A DNA stretch of 64,000 nt from Escherichia phage vB_Eco_mar004NP2. Where the stretch lies: the sequence record OR896837.1. The stretch is one strand, 5' to 3'. Under the pieces are notes generated by a model that worked only from the letters and a program-made list of their open reading frames with translations, was not told the origin of the DNA and made no database searches. The stretch's first letter is position 1. Every line of letters starts with the position of its first letter. Below, one piece after another: positions 9,618 to 43,445 of this stretch. Both the position numbers and the translations under genes were made by a program.

Positions 9618-10031
9618 TTAAACTAGTTCGACATGACCTCCATCATAGGTACCACGTTTTATTTCATCGTGATAGTCTCCTGAAGCATTCCAATCAGCAC
9701 CAAAACGAAGTTTAATGCCTAGTTCTTTACCAGCTTGTTCAAAAGCCTTTTTAACCGCCCAAAATGCTTCTAAGTCATTCCAATCAATTTTGCCATTAAT
9801 ATATGGAGCAAAATCAATAGCATCCCCAGTAATATGTTTGCTTTTACTAGGATCTTTTAGAAATGAAGTACCATTAGCAATGTTCTGGGCACTTTGTGCT
9901 ACTGTACGAATACCTTGCACGATTGTGAAATCATACGGAGATAATTCTAAAGCCCTACGAGCTACTTTTTGTAGCTCGGGCTTAACGGTAGCTAATTGTT
10001 TTTCGCTATTTTTACCAAATTTAAAACTCAT
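9618..10031 (-). CDS. endolysin, L-alanyl-D-glutamate peptidase (M15-like)
   Basis: 137 aa; HITGDAIDF...GADW...DYHD...GGHVE metal-binding pattern; sits just downstream of the putative holin. Confidence 0.8.
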   Translation of the reverse strand: MSFKFGKNSEKQLATVKPELQKVARRALELSPYDFTIVQGIRTVAQSAQNIANGTSFLKDPSKSKHITGDAIDFAPYINGKIDWNDLEAFWAVKKAFEQAGKELGIKLRFGADWNASGDYHDEIKRGTYDGGHVELV

Positions 10032-10738
10032 ATTGACCTACCTAAAGATCTCTGTTGTGTGGAACAGAGCTTTGCTAAATATTCCTTGAACTGTTCAGAA
10101 TCAGCTGTATCTACCGGATTATCTTTCCAAGCAATACCAATGTACCCAGCATAGATATTTTTTAGATTGAAGTATGGACAAGTGTATATGTAATTAAAAG
10201 TAACGTTTTTAAACGCAGGTATATTTAACCCCATATATTTATTTACTCTTACACTTAAATCCGATGCGTAGTTAAAGCCCTCTAAATGACGTCTGTATAA
10301 TTCAGACGTTTTATTTACCGCTTTATCGGCCAAGTCAGCCCTATCTAATTGCGCATTACTTTCCCATGCAATAATATTGGAATAATCATTGATAGCATCT
10401 GGTTTATACTTGACTACAAAAACAGCATCTGCACCCGTCTGAGAGAAGAGAACCATGCTCTTTTCCCTCGCCACATTAGGGAAGTTATCTATCCTCTGGG
10501 TTTGTAAATCCTGTAAAACTGCAGACGTGGAAAAAGTCTTTAAGAATGACATTACTTCACTAGTATTACTAACAAATAAGAAAATAATGACAGCAACTAA
10601 GATAGTTAGCAGACGTTTAAGAAGCGATGCTGGGTCTTTCGCTTCTTGGAGCAGTACTGTTAATAATTGTAAGAACTTTTCCAATTTGTAACCTCCTCTA
10701 ACCAGTACCATTATACTAATTTTGGAGGAAAATTTCAA
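10028..10738 (-). CDS. putative holin
   Basis: TM segment LLTILVAVIIFLFV; position immediately upstream of and overlapping the endolysin. Confidence 0.5.
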   Translation of the reverse strand: MKFSSKISIMVLVRGGYKLEKFLQLLTVLLQEAKDPASLLKRLLTILVAVIIFLFVSNTSEVMSFLKTFSTSAVLQDLQTQRIDNFPNVAREKSMVLFSQTGADAVFVVKYKPDAINDYSNIIAWESNAQLDRADLADKAVNKTSELYRRHLEGFNYASDLSVRVNKYMGLNIPAFKNVTFNYIYTCPYFNLKNIYAGYIGIAWKDNPVDTADSEQFKEYLAKLCSTQQRSLGRSI

Positions 10739-11451: not shown

Positions 11452-12204
11452 TTATCCAACTAGTGGTTCTAGCTCTAAGTCACAGAAGTTATAAACTTCT
11501 AGTTTAAGGTTATTGATACCATCGAATTTATTAACTAATTCGTGAGTAATATATTTTGCAGGAATACCACTTTCAGATGGATGATCTGATTTAATAGTGA
11601 ACTTCTGCTCAGCTGGTACTACATTTACTATCAAAGAATCCATATCTAAATGGTTTGTTTCTCTGAGTAGCTCTCCTTCATTGAGGAATCTAACATCTGT
11701 TATTACGGCGACATCTGGGTCGTCTTTAGCGATGGATTGCTCCAGAATTATGAGCCAAATGCGTTCATGTACCAGCTGCCTTCCTAGCTCTGTCCCTACG
11801 AGCTGTAACATTTTTCTCGGAGAAATAAATAAACTATAAAGTCCGTCTTCTTTATTCTCTGAGATAAGTTGTTGAGGATTAAGATATTTTTCCTCAAAAA
11901 TCGGCCAAACGTACGAGAAGTCTTCAAACTTATCGATACCGTATTTAAACCATACGTCTCTAGCTCGCTCCAATTGAGATTGTGTGACCGTAAACCATTG
12001 GTCAATCTCTTTTCCCCTGCGCTCTCCTAGAAACTCTGGAGTTACACCGAGGATTACAGATGCAAGTTCATAAACGGGCTTGGCAAAACTGTAACGACGG
12101 GGTAAACACGTTGGATACGTGTCATTACACCAATCGATAATTAATTTTGCAACGGTATCTTTTCCCGAACCAGCTTCACCATGTAAACCGACTAATACTG
12201 ACAT
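11452..12204 (-). CDS. deoxynucleoside monophosphate kinase
   Basis: P-loop GEAGSGKDT at N-terminus; about 250 aa; phage dNMP kinase family. Confidence 0.7.
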   Translation of the reverse strand: MSVLVGLHGEAGSGKDTVAKLIIDWCNDTYPTCLPRRYSFAKPVYELASVILGVTPEFLGERRGKEIDQWFTVTQSQLERARDVWFKYGIDKFEDFSYVWPIFEEKYLNPQQLISENKEDGLYSLFISPRKMLQLVGTELGRQLVHERIWLIILEQSIAKDDPDVAVITDVRFLNEGELLRETNHLDMDSLIVNVVPAEQKFTIKSDHPSESGIPAKYITHELVNKFDGINNLKLEVYNFCDLELEPLVG

Positions 12205-12557
12205 TAATCTTTCCTATTGTTAATTGGTGGATAATATACTAAACAACGTTTTTCTTGCAAATCTTGGCGGTAGAAGCAAACCATACTTGTCAGTCGTAAG
12301 ATATATGAATATTCTGCCTCGCGGCATTTTGCCAACATATTCCAATCTTTATATGGTACGACTACTACTACGCCATCTTCACCGTTTGTAGCTAATTTCT
12401 TTTCAAATTTGAAATCAAAGCTACAAGGTTGAAGTTCTTTAGGCCAGTCCACATGAGCTGTTGGTAGTTCATGGGTAGGTTCTGGCTTTATTTCTTGTGC
12501 ACAGCCTGTGATTGTGATTGCGGCTGCGAGCAGTATTCCAAGTTTCCAGTTAAACAT
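12204..12557 (-). CDS. outer-membrane lipoprotein, putative o-spanin
   Basis: Signal peptide with lipobox LAAAITITGC; overlaps the upstream i-spanin-like gene. Confidence 0.5.
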   Translation of the reverse strand: MFNWKLGILLAAAITITGCAQEIKPEPTHELPTAHVDWPKELQPCSFDFKFEKKLATNGEDGVVVVVPYKDWNMLAKCREAEYSYILRLTSMVCFYRQDLQEKRCLVYYPPINNRKD

Positions 12558-12937
12558 GCTAATCTTTCCTCGAACTCCTTACTCTGCTTTTTAGCAATTA
12601 ATGTAACCAATCCAGGCTTTGCAGCTATAATATCTTGACAACTAAGTGCTTTATCAAGCTGATTAATTTTCTTGTCTAGATCTGCTTGCGAAACATTATT
12701 CATTGTGAAATACTGATTCATTCGAGTCTCACGAAGTTCACTCTCAGCCCTCACATTATTAAGGGAGGTTTCTAGAGAAGAGATCTTTTTAGTAGCTACT
12801 GCAAGATCACCTGCTAGAGTCTCAACCTTATTAACTAAGTGATAAGCACCGAATCCGATGCCTATCGCTAGACCTGCTCCCAGGATATACCACTTACCTT
12901 GCCATATTCCTGAAAGAAGTTTTTGTATCAAATCCAT
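12488..12937 (-). CDS. putative i-spanin
   Basis: N-terminal TM helix then coiled-coil periplasmic region; overlapping lipoprotein partner. Confidence 0.5.
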   Translation of the reverse strand: MDLIQKLLSGIWQGKWYILGAGLAIGIGFGAYHLVNKVETLAGDLAVATKKISSLETSLNNVRAESELRETRMNQYFTMNNVSQADLDKKINQLDKALSCQDIIAAKPGLVTLIAKKQSKEFEERLACLTGNLEYCSQPQSQSQAVHKK

Positions 12938-15795: not shown

Positions 15796-15874
15796 TGGTA
15801 GATCGCCTGGGACTCGAACCCAGAACCTTCCGATTAAAAGTCGGATGCTACTAAACCTATTGAGCTAGCGATCT
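15796..15874 (-). tRNA. tRNA-Lys (anticodon UUU)
   Basis: Hand fold: acceptor AGATCGC/GCGATCT, T-arm CTGGG-TTCGAGT-CCCAG, anticodon loop CTTTTAA, CCA encoded. Confidence 0.7.
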
Positions 15875-16063
15875 ATTAGTAACCATTATATACTTCTTTA
15901 ATAGAGTGAACTTTCAAGTAAGGGTGATTAATCCCAAACTCCGCCATTACTTCTTTCTCATCTTTTCCATAATGAGCAAGTAAGGATTTTGAGGTATTCT
16001 TACCTAAACGTTTGTCACTTACTACTAATCGAAATACTTTCATTTCGAAATCCTCTATTAAAG

Positions 16064-16140
16064 TGGAAGCGGGTGCAGGAATCGAACCTACCTCTTTCTA
16101 GCTTATGAGACTAGCGATCTCTACCAGAGATCTAACCCGC
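16064..16140 (-). tRNA. tRNA with CAU anticodon (Met or Ile2)
   Basis: Anticodon arm CTAGT-CTCATAA-GCTAG; T-loop TTCGATT; imperfect acceptor stem. Confidence 0.55.
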
Positions 16141-16147
16141 AATTGTT

Positions 16148-16225
16148 TGGTCTCCGTGGGAGGATTTGAACCCACGACCCTATCGCCCCAAACGAAACGC
16201 TCTGGCCAAACTGAGCTACACGGAG
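16148..16225 (-). tRNA. tRNA-Pro (anticodon UGG)
   Basis: Perfect acceptor CTCCGTG/CACGGAG + A + CCA; D-arm GCTC/GAGC; loop TTTGGGG; T-stem imperfect. Confidence 0.55.
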
Positions 16226-16600
16226 AATATTATTTCTTTAACCACAGCAAAGATAAGCCCAGCATACTAAAACCGCTAACTAATCCGATACATTTTTCTT
16301 CTATAGTAAAAGTATCTAGATTAAATGCTGTTATAGCTATTGGTATACACCATAATGCCATAAAAACTTGAGCTATCTTGTGTTTCATTTTGCTTTCCTT
16401 CTCTTCACTTTATAAAATATATTATACAGATAATAAAGCAGAATAGCAAATGAATTTTTAATAAATTTACTTATTGTGTAGGCCACCTGGAGGCTACCAA
16501 CCCCACGGCTGACAAAGAAGTTTGCGAGACCTCTCTTAAATGCCAGAATAGACCCGGCGGGTCTATCGGAACCTACATAATAAGTAAACTTTATAGTGTC

Positions 16601-16720
16601 ATTCTAGACAGGACTCGAACCTATTATCACTTGTGCGGACTTACGAGAACCATTCTTTCACTCGAATCGAACGAGCTTCTGCCCTCGCCAAGCTGGTTTC
16701 CCCATCAACCACGCTAGAAT
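16601..16720 (-). ncRNA. tRNA-like structured RNA, about 120 nt
   Basis: Terminal 7-bp pairing ATTCTAG/CTAGAAT, D-like stem GGTT/AACC, T-arm ATAGG-TTCGAGT-CCTGT, but about 70 nt of extra internal sequence and no canonical anticodon arm. Confidence 0.3.
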
Positions 16721-16842
16721 GTTTGATTGTTTTCAGTGCAAGAGTCCGAGTCTTGGACACGACCGCTTCGCAAGTACATAGGCAGCTTATCATGAGTCAG
16801 CACTTCCGAATTGCTAGCTCCGTGTTCTGCACTGAAATTTTG

Positions 16843-17190
16843 TTAATTTAATAGTAAAGTACGATCTACTTCACCATTAATTGTTCGGCATTCTTCTGGG
16901 ATTGCTGGTGTAGTCTTATATTCCCACCATTCAGAACCATCATATTCACCACGTTCTAACCAAGTTCCATCGGTAAACCATACGTTACCATAAAGCAATT
17001 GTCCGCCGAAACCAGAATCATGTTTAAAGTCTAGATTATCTAGAAAATCTTCAATATCTTTTTCTGTATAACCTACGGGTAATACCCAAACTTCTTTATC
17101 CCCATAATAACCGAATTCTATCTTAATACACTTAACTTCAGAATTAGTATTCTTTAGGGCAAGTAACAATTCTTCTTTAGCATTAATCAT
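16843..17190 (-). CDS. hypothetical protein (115 aa)
   Basis: ORF inside the tRNA region. Confidence 0.45.
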   Translation of the reverse strand: MINAKEELLLALKNTNSEVKCIKIEFGYYGDKEVWVLPVGYTEKDIEDFLDNLDFKHDSGFGGQLLYGNVWFTDGTWLERGEYDGSEWWEYKTTPAIPEECRTINGEVDRTLLLN

Positions 17191-17216
17191 AGCATATTTC
17201 TCGTGCTAGTTTAATT

Positions 17217-17291
17217 TGGTACACCCTGTTCGTATCGAACGAACCTCTCAAGCTCTTCAGGCAAGCGCTAATCCATCTCAGCTAAAGGTGC
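17217..17291 (-). tRNA. tRNA-Phe-like (GAA) candidate, possibly defective
   Basis: 75 nt; acceptor GCACCTT/AGGGTGT with 2 G-U pairs; T-arm GTTCG-TTCGATA-CGAAC; loop CTGAAGA; anticodon stem has two T-T mismatches. Confidence 0.4.
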
Positions 17292-17445
17292 AAATTTTGG
17301 CAGGGGTAAAGGTATTCGAAAGCTTGGGCTTCAGAAGTAGCTCTGGCTAACCTATATCCTTTTTTATATTCATCAGGGTATTCTCTATCTTGAATAAACA
17401 CAACATAAACTATGTATAATTCCACTTGTAATCCCCTAATTAAGT

Positions 17446-17523
17446 TGGTGGCTCCCCGAGGATTCGAACCTACGTACCTTCCGGTTATGAGCCGGGTGCT
17501 CATACCATATGAGCTTGAGAACC
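17446..17523 (-). tRNA. tRNA with CAU anticodon (Met/Ile2), second copy
   Basis: Acceptor GGTTCTC/GGGAGCC + A + CCA; D-arm GCTCA/TGAGC; loop CTCATAA; weak T-stem. Confidence 0.5.
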
Positions 17524-17529
17524 AGAATT

Positions 17530-17619
17530 TGGCGGAAGAAGTGGGAATCGAACCCACAAGGCTATATTTCAAACCGACAGATTAGCAATCTGCTGCAATA
17601 CCGTTATGCTATTCTTCCG
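17530..17619 (-). tRNA. tRNA-Ser (anticodon GCU)
   Basis: Acceptor GGAAGAA/TTCTTCC + G + CCA; loop TTGCTAA; long variable arm; perfect T-arm GTGGG-TTCGATT-CCCAC. Confidence 0.65.
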
Positions 17620-17638
17620 AATTTATAAATATATTATA

Positions 17639-18157
17639 TTAGAAATTTAGCTTCATAGCAAGAAAATTTTTCAAGTTTTCGGTAGACATCTCATCCACAT
17701 CTACAGGAGAAACAAATCCATTTAATTGTCTAGCAAATTTTTCACCAGCAGGATCATTATCCCCAACAGCTACCAATTTAAAAGGTAGTAATTTCAATTG
17801 CTTTAACAACGCTTTTCCGGGGGAAGAACCCAACATTGCCAGGGCTGGATAACCAGCGTTATGTAACGCAACTGCCTTAAATACAGATTCAGCAATCAAT
17901 ACTACTTTTTCGTCTCCATTGAGAGTTTCTAGTCCCCGTACACACTGTGTAGTAGAATAAGTAAAATATCTAGCTTCAAAGGGGCATTTACCATGACCTT
18001 TTGGAGCAGAAGGATTATAAGTCTGATAGCCTCTCAACATCCCAGAGAAGTCATACAATGGGACTGTTAGCCATCCTTCTGGGCTTAGCCAGCAGTGATA
18101 TTTATCTGTATCAAACCCTCTAGATAAGAGATGTTCTGTTAGTTCATCAACAGTCAT
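17639..18157 (-). CDS. Toprim-domain protein
   Basis: Conserved Glu in VVLIAESV and acidic cluster VAVGDNDPAGEKFA resemble the Toprim fold. Confidence 0.45.
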   Translation of the reverse strand: MTVDELTEHLLSRGFDTDKYHCWLSPEGWLTVPLYDFSGMLRGYQTYNPSAPKGHGKCPFEARYFTYSTTQCVRGLETLNGDEKVVLIAESVFKAVALHNAGYPALAMLGSSPGKALLKQLKLLPFKLVAVGDNDPAGEKFARQLNGFVSPVDVDEMSTENLKNFLAMKLNF

Positions 18158-18254
18158 TATTTGATCCCCTAGTTAGTTGTATAAATACATTATACAGAAA
18201 AGCCCTGCGTTCTCCAGGAAACACAGGGCTTACTTCGAATATTACGCGTGGATA

Positions 18255-19203
18255 TTACTTATTACGCATATCCATAATCATCTGGCCATCGTAACCAGTG
18301 CCAACCACAGTCTGCGGTACACCACCTTGATACTTCTGAGCACGAATCATTTCAACTTCTAGTTGCTTCCAGCGAATCATCTCAGGAGTAATGGTACGTT
18401 GCAGCGCGGCGTTAGCTTCAGCTTCTTTCTTAGCTGCGTACAGTTTAGCATCTGCGTCGCGTTCGTTAGCAATAGCTTGGTTATTACGAGCTTCACGGTC
18501 TGCTTCTGCTTGTTTAACTTTCTGCTGAGCTTCTTGTTCAACGCGAGCCAGTTCAGCTTTTGCAGCATTAACTTGCTCTTCACGAACTTTGGTATTCTGT
18601 ACCTGTTCCATGATTACTGGTGGCAAAGTAATATCCTGAAGAAACATCTGCTTAACTGTGTAGCCATATGGGCGTGCATACTCTTCAACTTCCTGTTGAA
18701 TTGCAGTTTGCAATTGAGCCTGAATTTTAGCATCAAATAAATCTTGTGCTTTAGGTACAGACTTACCAAACTCACGAATAGTAGACAGTAATTTTTCAGT
18801 TACATATTTGTCTAATGCTTGATCCTGAGTACCTGCATTAATACGGTTAATCGGTGCCTTAGAACCATCAAACTGCAACATAACAGTCAGGTCAACAGTG
18901 GATTTAAACTTATCCTGGCTAGGAACCTGAAGTTTATCTAATTTTTACAGCAATATCTTTTGTACTAAAAGTATCGAAAGATGCAAATGGGTTTACAGGA
19001 TGGAAACCAGGTAATACTGGGTTAGGATCTACTTTACCAAGAAATGTTTGGGTTTTAACCGTACCATCAGAAACAATAGTATATGAATTAAAAGCTAGGA
19101 TTAAACCTGCTAAACCAACTACAGCACCAATCCCCCAACGTTTAATAGTACGAATTACTTTCTGCTCAGAAGTTAGTTCTTTCATATTTTTAGTATTAAA
19201 CAT
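18255..19203 (-). pseudogene. SPFH/band-7 membrane protein, reading frame interrupted (two ORFs, 18934..19203 and 18255..18881)
   Basis: Upstream ORF gives TM anchor plus first SPFH segment; downstream ORF gives the rest plus coiled coil; frames differ by +1 across an A5 run. Confidence 0.5.
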
Positions 19204-19237
19204 ATATTTCCTTTGTTTTAGTTACAGTTAATAAAAT

Positions 19238-19312
19238 TGGCCGAGGTGACAGGATTCGAACCTGCATAAAGGAATTTAGAAGACTCCTGCCTATCCCTTA
19301 GACTACACCCCG
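19238..19312 (-). tRNA. tRNA-Arg (anticodon UCU)
   Basis: Acceptor CGGGGTG/CACCTCG + G + CCA; anticodon arm GGAGT-CTTCTAA-ATTCC; T-arm GCAGG-TTCGAAT-CCTGT. Confidence 0.6.
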
Positions 19313-19814
19313 TTTAAGTATTTTTAAGAACTCTCGTAAAAACTCTTAAAAATACAGACGATACCGGGAGAGTCATAAGTCTCACTCATTAAGTATTTCA
19401 AGACAAAATACAGTAACGTCTATTATTTTCCAGTTTAAGTCAGGGTGACTTAGTGGTTATGTCCTGCGGTATATTGAGGACTCGGTTAGGCTTGGGGTCA
19501 TGACTTCCCACCTTTTGCTGCTACTCAACAGGAGTTATCGCGAATTACCTGTGCTATTGTGCACCATTAGTGACATCTCTCATGTCAGCATTTCCCACTT
19601 TGTGGATAGCTTGAAAAACTACTCCGATATGGAGAAAGAACTTCACTACCCTAGAATACCTTCTAAAGTTCTTCTTTAGCCTAGGCATAGTTAAATCGTA
19701 ATAAAACTATTCAGCAGACTGGTTGGTTAGTCTGGAACCAACTACCGCGTGGTTTAGGCAGTGCGCAACTAACCTCGGAAGCTTTTACGTTAAAAGCATC
19801 AGTTATCCAGTTCT

Positions 19815-19890
19815 TACCGACCGTAGGATTCGAACCTACATCTTCCACCAGTTACGGCTTGATAATACCAATTATACTAGGACGGCAGTG
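19815..19890 (-). ncRNA. tRNA-like element, possible tRNA pseudogene
   Basis: Perfect T-arm GTAGG-TTCGAAT-CCTAC and partial acceptor pairing; no anticodon stem could be folded; no CCA. Confidence 0.3.
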
Positions 19891-20161
19891 TTACTACATA
19901 AGTGATTTCCACACCCCACTATTTATAAATTAGAGAAGAGTTTAGGGGAGAGGTTTCAGACGCCTCATTTTACACGTTCTAGCCACTAACCGGGATTGCC
20001 GCCCCCTGTGTACTAGTTTTACAACTAACCCACCGACTCTATTCAACGAATCTTAGTGCTTGACGCATCTTACATTAAGACAAGTTCAGCGTAATCGGCT
20101 CGCTGTTCTCTAATTTATGAATATATTATACAGAATTTATAAGCATTTAGCAAATAAATTT

Positions 20162-20605
20162 TTAATTAAATTCGCCAGCAATCTGAGCAGCAGTACCACC
20201 ATCATAACGCCCAGGAAATTCTTCCTTAATCGCTTTCATTAGCATACCTTTTGTAATTCCAGGGTTTAGCTTAACTAATTCTGCAAAGTATTTACGAATC
20301 TCAGTATCAGATAACTGAGGAGGCAGATACTCCTGCAACCACTTATTTAGAATGTATTCATACTGAGCGGACTGCAAGCTATAACTATCAAGATCTTGAC
20401 CATGAAGTTTAGCTTTCATCTGGTTAATGCTTTTTAGTTGAGCTTTGAGATAAGACACAAATTGTTCAGAAGTGATGAAATCTTTATTAATACGCTGAAG
20501 ATCCCCGATTATGGTCTGATAGCTTTTAGCGACTTCTTTATCAGAACCATTAAACTTAGAATCCTGCAAAGCTCTACGCAAAACATCTAAAATATTCTCT
20601 TCCAT
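20162..20605 (-). CDS. GatB/YqeY-domain protein
   Basis: C-terminal GMLMKAIKEEFPGRYDGGTAAQI matches the YqeY/GatB C-terminal signature. Confidence 0.55.
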   Translation of the reverse strand: MEENILDVLRRALQDSKFNGSDKEVAKSYQTIIGDLQRINKDFITSEQFVSYLKAQLKSINQMKAKLHGQDLDSYSLQSAQYEYILNKWLQEYLPPQLSDTEIRKYFAELVKLNPGITKGMLMKAIKEEFPGRYDGGTAAQIAGEFN

Positions 20606-20843
20606 TATTTCATTCCTAACGCTTGGTTAAAAGATCGTTCTGTCATAACTGCTGAGACTTTGGCGAAATCAAACTTTTTAGGGTTCGTAGTGATCTCAGC
20701 AACGTTAGAAGTTTTAACAGTTTTCGTAGTACGAATACCGCGAGTGTTAACACCAATAATTACAACTGATTTCATATTTCGCTTCCTCTCATTAATTTAT
20801 GGAAGTATTATACTGAAATTTAAGTATTTAAGCAAGTAAATTT

Positions 20844-21311
20844 TTAAGTTTTAGTGACAACAGGTTTATAAAACGTATGTCCCTTAATCTTAGTTGTTTT
20901 CTTAAACTTCTTTGTCCAGTAAGGTTTATCTTTACCACTATGGAAGTATAGTGCTCCATGTGTAGGATCTTGTGGTAAATCAACGTAGTATATCACTCTA
21001 GCTAAATTCTTGGCGGTTTGCCAAGCCTCATCAGTTTTATCAACTTTTGGTCTCTTAGATACCCAAGAGAACTGGTTAGACTGATATACTACTTTACAGT
21101 AGGAATCTGGGAATTTACCGGAGTTTACACGGTTTTTAGTAACATGTGCAATCGCCGTCATTCCCTTTATGCCCTCACCACGACTTTCGAAATAGATATT
21201 TTTAGCAATGCAATCTATTTCTTTTGCATCGTGCGATGCCTGACTACTAAAGCTGAAGGTAAGGGCAGCTACTAAAAGCAAAGCTGCCTTCATTCTTTTT
21301 ACTCCTGCCAA
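20844..21311 (-). CDS. secreted cell-wall hydrolase (SleB-like)
   Basis: Signal peptide AALLLVAALTFSFSSQA; NIYFESRGE...VTKNR motif. Confidence 0.6.
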   Translation of the reverse strand: MAGVKRMKAALLLVAALTFSFSSQASHDAKEIDCIAKNIYFESRGEGIKGMTAIAHVTKNRVNSGKFPDSYCKVVYQSNQFSWVSKRPKVDKTDEAWQTAKNLARVIYYVDLPQDPTHGALYFHSGKDKPYWTKKFKKTTKIKGHTFYKPVVTKT

Positions 21312-21616
21312 TCATATTCAACACGATTGGGATTTTCTTTATACCCTAAGTCAAGCAAATCATTACGCATATTTTGCTTAGCTACTGGGTTCGAGGTTAC
21401 TAGTACCACTTTCTTTGGTCTCTGCCCAAATTCTAAGAGTAAACGAAGAATTTGATAACCTTCCATACCATCTACAGCCAAGTCATTATCCATATAAACG
21501 AAATGGCCTGTGGTATCAGTTTTATTCAGAAACTCTACAGCGGCTTCTGGGGTTCGAATGATAATGTCCATTCCATGAAGATTACGCACATCATCAATCA
21601 AAATATGAAAAGTCAT
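21299..21616 (-). CDS. hypothetical protein, possible receiver-like fold
   Basis: Weak resemblance only. Confidence 0.35.
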   Translation of the reverse strand: MTFHILIDDVRNLHGMDIIIRTPEAAVEFLNKTDTTGHFVYMDNDLAVDGMEGYQILRLLLEFGQRPKKVVLVTSNPVAKQNMRNDLLDLGYKENPNRVEYDWQE

Positions 21617-21802
21617 AATAGCCTCGTTTCATCAATTTAAAAATATATTATACATATAATTTAGTGGATTAGCAAATACATTTTTAAATTGTGAAACTAG
21701 TAAACCGATAAACAGCCTAGAGGCGCCACAGGCCATATCTTATGAGCCATGTACCTTTGATCTAGGGTTTGAATCATCAACGAATACTTTGCATCTTTTA
21801 GC

Positions 21803-22058: not shown

Positions 22059-22697
22059 TTACTCTACTTCAATGAAGGTAGAGGCGTTAGACTCGGACAG
22101 AACAAAGTCAACATTTGTTGCAAAGTCCTGGTATTCCTCGTCATGCTGCTTAATCAGCTTCTCCAGTTCCAGCGGATCAATCAAGAATGGAGTATTCTTG
22201 AGTTCCAGCAGGTTGAGCTGCATTTTAACTTCATCTTCGGAAGTTTTCTTATCGCGGGTAGCCATGCTATCCTGCAAACGCTCATATTTAGCATCAAACT
22301 GTGCTTTCTGCGTATTAAATTTAACCGTAGCGGCATGGAACTGCTTACGCATGTTAGCCAGCAGTTGAGCTTTAAGCTCCATAGAACGCTTAGCTTCAAT
22401 TGCTTCCGCAACAGTCATCTTACGAGAGCCAATCTCAACTACTGTTTCCGCATTGCTCTTAATCAGAGCAGCTTTGATACGATCACGCTGAGACATCATA
22501 TCCAGCAGAGACTGGAAATCTGTCTTAATACGCTCAGATAAATCATCTACTTCGATTGCAGCGCCAACTACAACCTTATTTTTATCCTTACCTTCACCAA
22601 CAGCGATCAGAAGCTGTTGTTCAGTAGCTTTACGGATTTTAGCTTCCAGAGATTTGATAGTTGCTAGAGCGCGAGTTTTAGAGATACGAGTAGTCAT
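22059..22697 (-). CDS. hypothetical coiled-coil protein (212 aa)
   Basis: ORF. Confidence 0.5.
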   Translation of the reverse strand: MTTRISKTRALATIKSLEAKIRKATEQQLLIAVGEGKDKNKVVVGAAIEVDDLSERIKTDFQSLLDMMSQRDRIKAALIKSNAETVVEIGSRKMTVAEAIEAKRSMELKAQLLANMRKQFHAATVKFNTQKAQFDAKYERLQDSMATRDKKTSEDEVKMQLNLLELKNTPFLIDPLELEKLIKQHDEEYQDFATNVDFVLSESNASTFIEVE

Positions 22698-42285: not shown

Positions 42286-42342
42286 ATTCTCATAGTTTGA
42301 AAGAACTATTCTGTTTAATTATTAATTAAGGAAATATAAAAT

Positions 42343-42753
42343 ATGACTACTCCAACTCAGTGGACTGATGAACTGTTCGAAAAAATGTCTTCCGAATACG
42401 TTGCTCGTATGGAGCAATTCCCAGAGGATGAACGTCCGGGTGTTAGCATGGAAATTGTTAGCGAAATTGCCCAGGAAAATGGTGTAACTCCGAACGGTTT
42501 TCGTATGAAGCTAACTAAAGCAGGTGTGTATATCAAGAAAGCTGCTGGCTCTGCTTCTAAATCTAGCGCATCTACTGGAGAAAAAGCTTCTGGTGGTTCT
42601 CGTACTTCCAAAGCCCAAGCTCATGCCGATCTTCGTTCAGCATTCTCTGATGCTGGCTTAGCACCAGATTTTCTGGATGATGCAATTATCGACAAACTGA
42701 CCGGTAAAGCGGCTGCTCATCTGGCAGAAGCAATCCGAGCTATCACTAAGTAA
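42343..42753 (+). CDS. hypothetical protein (136 aa)
   Basis: ORF with RBS AAGGAAA. Confidence 0.5.
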   Translation: MTTPTQWTDELFEKMSSEYVARMEQFPEDERPGVSMEIVSEIAQENGVTPNGFRMKLTKAGVYIKKAAGSASKSSASTGEKASGGSRTSKAQAHADLRSAFSDAGLAPDFLDDAIIDKLTGKAAAHLAEAIRAITK

Positions 42754-42789: not shown

Positions 42790-43083
42790 ATGACCAAAGC
42801 TGAAATTATCGCACAATGTGAAAAATTTGGTGAGTTTTATCTTCATTACGAGAAACTTCGTCAGAAAGGAACCACGTACCTTCAGGGTACGATGGAATTT
42901 GATCCAGCCCAAGATAAATATCTGGCTGAGCGTATTAAACGTGAACGTATTCGTAAAGCGAAAGATGATGAGATCCTTGTCTTCTCTCGTACTAATGATA
43001 GCTTCCGTTTTATTCCTGTCGAGAAAGTCCGTCGTGTGACTAGCCTCCAATCAGAGTTAGATCGTGCTTCTCCAGTAGGCTGA
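42790..43083 (+). CDS. hypothetical protein (97 aa)
   Basis: ORF. Confidence 0.45.
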   Translation: MTKAEIIAQCEKFGEFYLHYEKLRQKGTTYLQGTMEFDPAQDKYLAERIKRERIRKAKDDEILVFSRTNDSFRFIPVEKVRRVTSLQSELDRASPVG

Positions 43084-43095
43084 TAAGAAACCAAT

Positions 43096-43118
43096 TAGCC
43101 CCTATATGGGGCTTTTTG
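43096..43118 (+). terminator. rho-independent terminator
   Basis: AGCCCC-TATA-TGGGGCT hairpin + TTTTTGTG. Confidence 0.55.
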
Positions 43119-43136
43119 TGTATTTGGGATATGTAA

Positions 43137-43445
43137 ATGAGCGAACAGGTAAATCAAAACTATGAAGGACACGTTGATGACCAGTCCATCATACTCTGGG
43201 AGAAGGAGGGAGAACAAGTAAGATTAACAGTATCTGAATTTCGTGGGAATCTATACATGGGTATTCGTTACTGGCTTCTTGATATTAATGATGAATGGTT
43301 TCCAACGAAATCTGGCTTCTCTTTTCCTTACACCCTAGAAACAACATCGCAGCTTTTCTATGCGTTTACACAGATTCTTAGCGAATCTGAGGTTTTACAT
43401 GAAGTACAGAAACGAGCTGAAGAACTCAAAGCCAAGAATGCCTAG
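43137..43445 (+). CDS. hypothetical protein (102 aa)
   Basis: ORF. Confidence 0.45.
   Translation: MSEQVNQNYEGHVDDQSIILWEKEGEQVRLTVSEFRGNLYMGIRYWLLDINDEWFPTKSGFSFPYTLETTSQLFYAFTQILSESEVLHEVQKRAEELKAKNA

What the first reader, a model, noticed from the sequence alone, without database searches (positions are those of the whole stretch)
20844..21311. Secreted SleB-like cell-wall hydrolase separate from the endolysin
It has its own signal peptide and lies 10 kb from the lysis cassette, so it is exported independently of the holin. It may act in superinfection, lysis timing or peptidoglycan remodelling rather than canonical lysis.
Basis: partly seen in the sequence, partly recalled or inferred. 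Interest (0 to 1): 0.4.

Follow-up and report, generated by a model that had tools for sequence, protein, structure and literature searches.

The report
Secreted second lysin of T5-like phage
This is the well-annotated T5.083 gene of a T5-like phage: a small cell-wall-cutting enzyme with its own export signal. It sits apart from the normal lysis genes, is real and conserved, has already been noted in the literature, and its exact role has never been tested.

Summary
On the minus strand, 20844-21293 (ATG at 21293, not the TTG at 21311) encodes a 149-aa protein with a Pfam Hydrolase_2 (SleB/CwlJ catalytic) domain (E=2e-25). The AlphaFold model (pLDDT 91) matches only the SleB catalytic domains in the PDB. 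The N-terminus, MKAALLLVAALTFSFSSQA|SHD, has the form of a cleavable Sec signal peptide, and that form is kept in about 95% of homologues.

The window is a Tequintavirus and the gene is the orthologue of T5.083 (97% identical). It occurs in about as many phage records (about 520) as the T5-type holin (about 526), and dN/dS is about 0.1.

None of this is new. The gene is annotated as "SleB cell wall hydrolase/endolysin" in hundreds of genomes, and papers from 2012 and 2024 note the second, holin-distant lysin of T5-like phages. A 32%-identical homologue with a signal peptide (Aeromonas phage ASG01 Cwh) lyses E. coli without a holin.

The most likely role is a Sec-exported, disulfide-stabilised periplasmic lytic transglycosylase that assists the holin-dependent M15 peptidase. 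A non-lytic role (superinfection, remodelling) is not excluded and has no supporting evidence. In a T5 CRISPRi screen, knockdown had no fitness effect. Interest is low.

The parts
20844..21293 (-). CDS of the 149-aa secreted Hydrolase_2 (SleB/CwlJ-fold) peptidoglycan hydrolase, orthologue of T5.083. The stop codon is 20846-20844.
   Evidence: ORF; Pfam PF07486 E=2.2e-25; phrog_938 'endolysin' E=5.5e-30; 97% identical to T5.083; fold match to SleB catalytic domains.
21237..21293 (-). Codons 1-19, the predicted Sec signal peptide MKAALLLVAALTFSFSSQA. Predicted signal peptidase I cleavage is after A19 (SQA|SHD).
   Evidence: Hydropathy and the -3/-1 rule. An equivalent n-h-c segment is present in nearly all of 81 homologues and in 142 of 151 sequences aligned from the 150 listed 50%-identity cluster representatives, although the sequence itself diverges. 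SignalP-predicted signal peptides are reported for homologues (PMC10975977, PMC7344957). Cleavage has not been shown experimentally.
21186..21188 (-). Codon for Glu36 in the YFESRGE motif, the predicted catalytic acid.
   Evidence: Aligns with the first Glu of YGESRGE in SleB 4F55/4FET. Invariant in 33/33 and 150/150 homologues. E42A in ASG01 Cwh, the equivalent residue, reduces lysis (PMC10975977).
21210..21212 (-). Codon for Cys28, one half of the conserved Cys pair (putative periplasmic disulfide).
   Evidence: C28 and C66 co-occur in 149 of 151 sequences aligned from the 150 listed 50%-identity cluster representatives. Both are absent from Bacillus SleB, where the positions are L and S. 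C34A in ASG01 Cwh abolishes lysis (PMC10975977).
21096..21098 (-). Codon for Cys66, the other half of the conserved Cys pair.
   Evidence: Invariant and 150/151. C72A in ASG01 Cwh reduces lysis (PMC10975977).
21302..21306 (-). Shine-Dalgarno AGGAG, 8 nt upstream of the ATG. It lies inside the 3' end of the upstream gene, whose TAA stop is 21301-21299.
   Evidence: Read directly from the sequence.
21299..21616 (-). Upstream gene, probably co-transcribed (5-nt gap): cREC_REC domain protein, orthologue of T5.084. It is context and probably not functionally linked.
   Evidence: PF20274 E=3.8e-15. The adjacency is not kept in Klebsiella or Serratia T5-like phages.
21647..21675 (-). Sigma-70-like promoter TTGCTA-17-TATAAT upstream of the two-gene unit.
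   Evidence: Consensus scan, 10/12 matches. T5 has an annotated promoter at the equivalent place, 43067-43141. The scan alone is not above background (6 sites found, 9.2 expected).
20807..20835 (-). Promoter-like TTGCTT-17-TATAAT just downstream of the stop codon. It is equivalent to T5 promoter P-D/E 33, which drives the next genes.
   Evidence: Read directly from the sequence; T5 annotation.
9618..10738 (-). Context: canonical lysis pair, M15 L-Ala-D-Glu peptidase endolysin (9618-10031) and T-type holin (10028-10738).
   Evidence: phrog_465 E=1e-54 and phrog_860 E=8e-78; PF11031 E=1e-111.
12204..12937 (-). Context: two overlapping Rz-like spanin genes (12204-12557 and 12488-12937).
   Evidence: phrog_812 E=6e-30 and phrog_739 E=1e-36.

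Best explanation
The gene is the T5.083 orthologue of a Tequintavirus.

Proposed mechanism:
1. It is transcribed from a host-type (sigma-70) early-region promoter together with the upstream cREC_REC gene.
2. It is made as a 16.9-kDa precursor and exported through Sec by a 19-residue cleavable signal peptide.
3. Cleavage releases a basic (pI about 9.7) 15-kDa soluble periplasmic enzyme.
4. The enzyme probably needs a C28-C66 disulfide formed in the periplasm.
5. It cleaves the glycan strands of ordinary peptidoglycan with a single catalytic Glu (E36), most likely as a lytic transglycosylase like SleB.

Its most likely job is accessory, holin-independent wall degradation. It would nick or pre-load the sacculus during infection and complete glycan cleavage when the holin fires and releases the cytoplasmic M15 L-Ala-D-Glu peptidase, so that two bond types are attacked.

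Shown by computation: the ORF, domain, fold, catalytic residue, signal-peptide features, Cys pair, conservation, purifying selection and gene context.

Inferred: actual export and cleavage, the disulfide, lytic-transglycosylase chemistry, the timing of activity, and the accessory-lysis role.

The confidence of 0.55 is for the whole statement. Identity as a secreted Hydrolase_2 muralytic enzyme is about 0.9, and the accessory-lysis role is about 0.5.
For: - Identity: Pfam Hydrolase_2 89.7 bits; SleB catalytic domains by sequence and by fold, with the only significant PDB hits being 4F55 and 4FET; many phage 'SleB' hydrolases in BFVD.
- Catalysis: E36 is invariant and is the only invariant acidic residue, which fits a single-acid lytic transglycosylase.
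- Export: canonical n-h-c signal peptide with SQA|S; the same architecture is kept in nearly all homologues while the sequence diverges. The C28/C66 pair is present in 149/151 aligned homologues and absent from cytoplasm-made Bacillus SleB.
- Functional gene: dN/dS 0.08-0.11; at least 60%-identical copies in about 520 phage records, against about 526 for the T5-type holin.
- Lytic capacity of the subfamily: ASG01 Cwh has a 23-aa SignalP-predicted signal peptide and lyses E. coli when expressed alone. C34A abolishes lysis and E42A and C72A reduce it (PMC10975977). These map to C28, E36 and C66 here. CB7_83 has a signal peptide and was reported toxic in E. coli (data not shown in that paper); it lies next to a putative holin (PMC7344957).
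- The same pairing recurs: CB7 also carries a T5-Lys-like M15 peptidase (PMC7344957).
- Redundancy is compatible with the T5 CRISPRi-ART screen: holin 'Fit', lys 'Not Fit', T5.083 'Not Fit'.
- Functional analogue: Kayvirus Tgl is a secreted lytic transglycosylase-type enzyme with an early promoter that is auxiliary to LysK (PMC7150955).
Against: - No experiment exists on T5.083 or any close orthologue; a full-text search for 'T5.083' found nothing.
- Knockdown gave no fitness defect, so any lysis contribution is dispensable in the laboratory. That screen also scored many known essential T5 genes 'Not Fit', so it is insensitive.
- An active muralytic enzyme exported well before lysis should risk premature lysis. 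How activity is restrained (low dose, membrane energisation, or an inhibitor) is unknown.
- The best experimental homologue is only 32% identical over 84 residues. It was tested in a pLysS strain that also makes T7 lysozyme, and lysis took hours.
- Bacillus SleB needs muramic-delta-lactam, which E. coli lacks, so the bond specificity is extrapolated.
Confidence: 0.55

Rival explanations
1. Non-lytic early periplasmic function. The exported enzyme would remodel peptidoglycan during infection for some purpose other than host lysis. Possibilities are excluding superinfecting phages, tuning lysis timing, changing cell shape or volume, or freeing progeny from wall debris.
For: The gene has a host-type promoter in the early region and is not next to the holin. 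The same placement, a secreted Hydrolase_2 among early and nucleotide-metabolism genes and away from any holin, recurs in two distantly related (41-44% identical) large phage contigs. Knockdown has no effect on fitness in a simple laboratory screen, as would be expected for a conditional or competitive function.
Against: There is no positive evidence for any specific alternative. T5's holin, endolysin and spanins are also early-region genes on the same strand and are themselves dispersed, so position does not discriminate. Homologues cause lysis or toxicity when expressed (PMC10975977, PMC7344957). T5 already has a known exclusion factor, Llp (PMC9586334).
Confidence: 0.2
2. SAR-type endolysin. 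The N-terminal hydrophobic segment would not be cleaved. It would tether an inactive enzyme to the inner membrane until holin-driven depolarisation releases it.
For: Phobius-type predictors often score SAR domains as signal peptides, and 28% of lysins from phages of Gram-negative hosts carry such a signal (PMC8223927). This model would neatly explain the absence of premature lysis. The first catalytic-domain helix follows directly on the hydrophobic helix in the AF2 model.
Against: The h-region is only 13 residues, is Leu-rich and not Gly/Ala/Ser-rich, and is followed by a conserved small-x-small (SQA, SHA, SYA, VQA, AIA) site at the same alignment position. These are the features of a cleaved signal peptide and not of a releasable transmembrane domain. 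T5-like phages carry a large T-type holin and not a pinholin.
Confidence: 0.1
3. Virion-associated lysin used to pierce the wall during DNA entry.
For: Many phages carry a virion muralytic enzyme, and Hydrolase_2 domains occur inside very large, probably structural, phage proteins (BFVD hits of 1076-1278 aa).
Against: A Sec signal peptide sends the protein out of the cytoplasm where virions assemble. The gene is in the early region and not in the late structural block. The limited AKFV33 virion analysis, four SDS-PAGE gel bands identified by mass spectrometry, did not include it (PMC3326045). From general knowledge, T5's tape-measure protein pb2 already supplies the entry muralytic activity.
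Confidence: 0.03
4. Decaying or inactive remnant of a horizontally acquired gene with no current function.
For: Knockdown is neutral. Some records carry truncated annotations, for example a 72-aa EPS7 entry and a 96-aa Klebsiella phage entry.
Against: dN/dS is about 0.1, the catalytic Glu and Cys pair are intact, and the gene is retained in essentially all T5-like genomes.
Confidence: 0.02

Closest known systems
Bacteriophage T5 gene T5.083 (YP_006911.1) and its orthologues in Tequintavirus/Epseptimavirus, annotated 'endolysin', 'cell wall hydrolase SleB' or 'spore cortex-lytic enzyme precursor'
   Same: It is the same gene. The product is 97% identical to T5.083 (4 of 149 residues differ) and 100% identical to proteins in several deposited phages. 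The neighbours are the same (T5.084 cREC_REC upstream; T5.082 and T5.081 downstream) and the promoters are in the same places.
   Different: Nothing of substance differs.
Aeromonas phage ASG01 Cwh (equivalent to pAh6-C gp31), a Hydrolase_2 lysin with a signal peptide (PMC10975977)
   Same: Same domain, N-terminal signal peptide, conserved Cys pair and catalytic Glu at equivalent positions with an offset of 6. It gives holin-independent lysis of E. coli on expression.
   Different: Only 32% identical over 84 residues, and 184 aa long. It is reported as the only recognisable lysis protein of a 54-kb Chaseviridae phage, whereas here the enzyme is additional to a complete holin/endolysin/spanin set.
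Vequintavirinae SleB-like proteins (Pectobacterium phage CB7 gp83, Cronobacter CR3_087, and the CR9 'endolysin')
   Same: Secreted Hydrolase_2 enzyme, 46% identical for CR9. It co-exists with a T5-Lys-like M15 peptidase in CB7 (PMC7344957).
   Different: In CB7 the SleB-like gene is overlapped by a putative class II holin and the M15 peptidase is the remote gene. This is the reverse of the T5 arrangement.
Bacillus SleB / CwlJ germination-specific cortex-lytic enzymes (PDB 4F55, 4FET)
   Same: The catalytic-domain fold and the catalytic Glu motif (Y-x-E-S-R-G-E).
   Different: There is no N-terminal PG_binding_1 domain. The NCBIfam SleB equivalog scores 50 bits against a cutoff of 236.5. The Cys pair is absent from SleB. 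The host has no muramic-delta-lactam cortex, so the substrate must be ordinary peptidoglycan.
Kayvirus Tgl and Oenococcus phage fOg44 Lys44: Sec-exported phage lysins
   Same: The working principle: a muralytic enzyme exported by the host Sec system ahead of lysis. Tgl is also expressed from a host-type early promoter and is auxiliary to the main endolysin (PMC7150955).
   Different: These are unrelated folds (Tgl is of the IsaA/SceD transglycosylase type) and their hosts are Gram-positive.

Membership tests
Pfam Hydrolase_2 (PF07486; SleB/CwlJ catalytic domain) | Profile score above the gathering threshold over the full domain | tested here: met
   89.7 bits against 27; profile positions 1-100 of 100; residues 39-142.
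Pfam Hydrolase_2 (PF07486; SleB/CwlJ catalytic domain) | SleB catalytic-domain fold | tested here: met
   AF2 model pLDDT 91.1. Foldseek against the PDB gives 4F55 and 4FET as the only hits with E below 1e-3; TM (target-normalised) 0.71-0.78, rmsd 2.5-2.9 A.
Pfam Hydrolase_2 (PF07486; SleB/CwlJ catalytic domain) | Conserved catalytic glutamate | tested here: met
   E36 aligns with the Glu of YGESRGE in SleB and is invariant in 150/150 homologues.
Pfam Hydrolase_2 (PF07486; SleB/CwlJ catalytic domain) | Peptidoglycan-cleaving activity | not testable with these tools
   Needs a zymogram or muropeptide analysis. There is indirect support from ASG01 Cwh (PMC10975977).
True SleB (spore cortex-lytic enzyme, NCBIfam TIGR02869 equivalog) | Score above the equivalog cutoff | tested here: not met
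True SleB (spore cortex-lytic enzyme, NCBIfam TIGR02869 equivalog) | N-terminal PG_binding_1 domain | tested here: not met
   The Pfam scan finds Hydrolase_2 only, and only 19+ residues precede the domain.
Canonical holin-dependent (cytoplasmic) endolysin | No export signal; accumulates in the cytoplasm | tested here: not met
   A signal-peptide-like N-terminus is present and conserved.
Canonical holin-dependent (cytoplasmic) endolysin | Gene clustered with the holin | tested here: not met
   The holin ends at 10738 and the hydrolase starts at 20844, 10.1 kb away. This feature is typical of the class but is not strictly defining.
Sec-exported lysin with a cleavable signal peptide (Lys44 / ASG01 Cwh type) | n-h-c signal peptide with small residues at -3 and -1 | tested here: met
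   MK / AALLLVAALTFSF / SSQA|S. The same pattern appears at the same alignment position in homologues. This test is rule-based; SignalP was not available.
Sec-exported lysin with a cleavable signal peptide (Lys44 / ASG01 Cwh type) | Demonstrated export, cleavage, and lysis without a holin | not testable with these tools
   Shown only for a 32%-identical homologue (PMC10975977).
SAR endolysin | Uncleaved, weakly hydrophobic Gly/Ala/Ser-rich N-terminal transmembrane domain of about 16-20 or more residues | tested here: not met
   The h-region has 13 residues, is Leu-rich, has no Gly, and is followed by a conserved AXA-type site.
PHROG 938 / T5.083 orthologous group | High-identity orthology with conserved synteny | tested here: met
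   phrog_938 E=5.5e-30; 97% identical to T5.083 with the same flanking genes.

The most novel reading that the evidence does not exclude
T5.083-type enzymes may not be lysis enzymes at all. They could be a conserved early periplasmic wall-remodelling function of large virulent phages of Gram-negative hosts, for example altering the sacculus to block superinfecting phages or to condition the envelope. This would explain why they sit among early and nucleotide-metabolism genes, away from holins, in T5-like phages and in two distantly related large phage contigs examined. It would also explain why they coexist with a complete canonical lysis set.
Probability: 0.15. Interest if true: 0.45.

Novelty: already known. 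Interest (0 to 1): 0.15.

Why it matters
The practical value is small. The work corrects the start codon, shows that "SleB" is a fold-level label and not an orthology, and shows that "endolysin" is an untested functional label.

The one open question is why T5-like phages, and several unrelated large phages of Gram-negative hosts, keep a Sec-exported glycan-cleaving enzyme under strong purifying selection alongside a holin-dependent peptidase. A simple double-knockout experiment could answer it. The answer would bear on how two-enzyme lysis is coordinated and on choosing self-exporting lysins for engineering.

Tried and rejected
- Full-text search for 'T5.083' found no paper.
- The HIDEN-SEQ preprint holds no T5 essentiality data.
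- Attai et al. 2017, on the Agrobacterium phage PPH (a large protein whose BFVD entry matched my model), is not held in the library, so that parallel stays a lead from memory.
- Ladybird Hydrolase_2 proteins did not inhibit E. coli from outside. This is uninformative because the outer membrane blocks access.
- The promoter/terminator scan is no better than background in this AT-rich region (6 sites found against 9.2 expected). I rely on it only where T5's own annotation has a promoter at the same place.
- The Rfam scan of 19200-21700 found only tRNA-type matches and nothing overlapping the gene.
- The antisense ORF 21018-21275 (+, 85 aa) was ignored as a by-product of the coding strand. No test was run on it.
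- I considered functional coupling to the upstream cREC_REC gene and rejected it, because the adjacency is lost in Klebsiella and Serratia T5-like phages.
- I could not measure the C28-C66 distance because the model coordinates are not exposed.
- SignalP and Phobius are not available in the sandbox.

Full report
**What the window is.** A 4-kb stretch around the finding is 99.9% identical to Escherichia phage Baret and Salmonella phage SPLA5b, and more than 98% identical to many other Tequintavirus genomes. Annotation transfer from phage SIA3lw and from T5 itself shows that the finding lies in the early-gene block, just past the tRNA region. The gene order is that of T5: T5.085, T5.084, T5.083, T5.082, T5.081, RNAX, tRNA-Arg.

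**Checking the observation.**
- The minus-strand ORF 20844-21311 exists, but its listed start is only the first TTG after a stop codon.
- The ATG at 21293 has an AGGAG 8 nt upstream. It gives the 450-bp gene annotated in T5 (42290-42739) and in the other T5-like records examined, and it is where homologues begin to align.
- The 149-aa product matches Pfam Hydrolase_2 over the whole profile (89.7 bits, cutoff 27, E=2.2e-25) and PHROG 938 'endolysin'.
- It aligns with the crystallised catalytic domains of B. cereus and B. anthracis SleB, E about 1e-8, and YFESRGE falls on SleB's YGESRGE.
- An AlphaFold2 model built on 33 homologues has mean pLDDT 91.1. Its only significant PDB neighbours are those two SleB domains, with target-normalised TM 0.71-0.78.
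- In the viral structure library it matches dozens of phage 'SleB cell wall hydrolase' proteins.
- So the 'SleB-like hydrolase' part is solid at the level of domain and fold.
- It is not a SleB orthologue. The NCBIfam SleB equivalog scores 50 bits against a cutoff of 236.5, and the N-terminal PG-binding domain is missing.

**The signal peptide.**
- Residues 1-19, MKAALLLVAALTFSFSSQA, have a basic n-region, a 13-residue uncharged Leu/Ala-rich core (9-residue Kyte-Doolittle windows of 2.1-3.0 over the Leu/Ala-rich start of the core), and a polar c-region ending S-Q-A. Small residues sit at -3 and -1, there is no lipobox cysteine, and there is no other hydrophobic segment.
- I could not run SignalP, so I tested the prediction by conservation.
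- Nearly all of the 81 homologues recovered from the 90%-identity cluster database show an equivalent n-h-c segment directly before the domain, although its sequence is not conserved.
- 142 of 151 sequences aligned from the 150 listed 50%-identity cluster representatives (plus the query) have a strongly hydrophobic 12-mer N-terminal to the domain.
- In the T5-like group the predicted cleavage tripeptide varies (SQA, SHA, AYA, SYA, VQA, AIA, AQA) but stays small-x-small at the same alignment column.
- Published SignalP runs predict signal peptides for two homologues (PMC10975977, PMC7344957).
- The short, Leu-rich, Gly-free core followed by an AXA site argues for a cleaved signal peptide and against a SAR anchor.

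**A periplasm-specific signature.**
- Two cysteines, C28 (eight residues before the catalytic Glu) and C66, co-occur in 149 of the 151 aligned sequences.
- They are replaced by Leu and Ser in Bacillus SleB.
- In the Aeromonas phage homologue, C34A abolished lysis and C72A reduced it, and the authors assign C34 to a disulfide (PMC10975977). These residues correspond to C28 and C66 here with an offset of 6, verified on the pAh6-C orthologue.
- A disulfide that can only form after export would keep any cytoplasmic precursor inactive. This is an inference, because I could not measure the distance in the model.

**Is the gene functional and general?**
- Pairwise dN/dS between the window, T5, Epseptimavirus S116 and a Klebsiella T5-like phage is 0.08-0.11.
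- tblastn finds copies at 60% identity or more in about 520 phage records. The T5-type holin is found at the same threshold in about 526.
- The hydrolase is therefore a near-core gene of T5-like phages.
- More distant copies (41-44% identical) sit in 85-95-kb phage contigs, among phosphatase, RNase H, UvdE and Thy1 genes and again not beside a holin.
- The wider family is very large: 14,485 cluster representatives at E of 1e-3 or better.

**Relation to the lysis cassette.**
The M15 peptidase endolysin is at 9618-10031, the T-type holin at 10028-10738 and the two Rz-like spanins at 12204-12937.
- Distance is weak evidence for a different role, for three reasons.
- First, T5's own lysis genes are dispersed; a Clp-protease and a dNMP-kinase gene lie between the holin and the spanins.
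- Second, all of them, like this gene, lie in the same early-region, same-strand block.
- Third, the hydrolase has a host-type promoter upstream of the two-gene unit cREC_REC-hydrolase: TTGCTA-17-TATAAT at 21675-21647, with a T5 promoter annotated at the same place.

**What is already known.**
- The gene is annotated as 'cell wall hydrolase SleB', 'spore cortex-lytic enzyme precursor' or 'endolysin' in hundreds of records.
- The AKFV33 paper (2012) lists it with the holin and lysozyme as early-region lysis-type genes (PMC3326045).
- A 2024 survey of Salmonella phages explicitly describes two endolysin ORFs, an M15C peptidase next to the holin and a SleB-domain one far from it, and asks which is used (PMC11180984).
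- Hydrolase_2 is listed among the catalytic domains that dominate among lysins of phages infecting Gram-negative hosts (PMC8223927).
- Functional data exist only for relatives. ASG01 Cwh lyses E. coli when expressed alone. CB7 gp83 has a signal peptide, is reported toxic on expression in E. coli (data not shown in that paper) and overlaps a candidate holin, while CB7 also carries a T5-Lys-like M15 peptidase.
- For T5 itself, the only data I found are from the CRISPRi-ART screen. T5.083 is 'Not Fit' (score -3.97, p=0.73), the endolysin lys is also 'Not Fit', and the holin C1 is 'Fit'.
- That pattern is compatible with two redundant muralytic enzymes. However, the screen also scores many known essential T5 genes as 'Not Fit', so it is weak evidence.

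**Most likely mechanism.**
1. The gene is transcribed with the early genes.
2. The precursor is exported by Sec and cleaved after A19.
3. The 15-kDa basic mature enzyme is oxidised in the periplasm.
4. It cleaves glycan strands using E36, which is the only invariant acidic residue. A single acid is the pattern of lytic transglycosylases such as SleB.
5. Overexpressed ASG01 Cwh took hours to lyse cells. Natural levels over a T5 cycle of roughly 40 minutes (from general knowledge) would therefore weaken the wall but not rupture it.
6. Full lysis would follow holin triggering, release of the M15 peptidase and spanin action.

I rate the identity and location (a secreted Hydrolase_2 muralytic enzyme) at about 0.9 and the accessory-lysis role at about 0.5. 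Rivals are a non-lytic early periplasmic role (0.2), a SAR-type tethered enzyme (0.1), a virion lysin (0.03) and a dead gene (0.02).

**Verdict.** The feature is already known and widely annotated, and its physiological role in T5 remains untested. Interest is low.

Noticed in passing
window 18255-19203 (-), around 18946: The SPFH/band-7 gene (T5.080 orthologue, 948 bp in T5 and SIA3lw) is split here into two ORFs, 18934-19203 and 18255-18881. The cause is a single extra A relative to SIA3lw. It is either a real frameshift (pseudogene) or a sequencing error.
   Followed up: partly
window 19815-19886 (-): There is an Rfam tRNA match (35.5 bits, gathering score 29) that ARAGORN did not call. It lies in the roughly 0.85-kb ORF-poor stretch equivalent to T5's annotated 'RNAX', a stable RNA of unknown function.
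   Followed up: no
window 15796-19312: ARAGORN finds only 5 tRNA genes in the window (Lys, Met, Pro, Ser, Arg). The equivalent region of phage SIA3lw annotates about 24. This phage, like its 107-108-kb closest relatives, has a much reduced tRNA block.
   Followed up: no
window 21299-21616 (-): The gene directly upstream of the hydrolase encodes a cREC_REC 'cyclic-phosphate processing receiver' domain protein (PF20274, E=3.8e-15; T5.084). It is separated from the hydrolase ATG by 5 nt. The pairing is not conserved in Klebsiella or Serratia T5-like phages.
   Followed up: partly
window 22059-22697 (-): This ORF is labelled 'tail fiber protein' (phrog_1491, E=4e-82; T5.085), yet it sits in the early-gene region far from the structural genes. 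The name is probably an annotation artefact.
   Followed up: no
T5 genome (literature), equivalent to window 9618-10738 and 20844-21293: In the CRISPRi-ART T5 screen the holin is 'Fit' but both muralytic genes (lys T5.040 and T5.083) are 'Not Fit'. This could reflect mutual redundancy or simply the low sensitivity of the screen.
   Followed up: partly
window 20605-20775 (-) and 20162-20605 (-): The genes downstream of the hydrolase are a 56-aa DUF7616 protein (E=1e-32) and a YqeY-like protein that PHROGs calls 'tRNA amidotransferase'. SIA3lw annotates the second as 'recombination related exonuclease', so the deposited records name it inconsistently.
   Followed up: no
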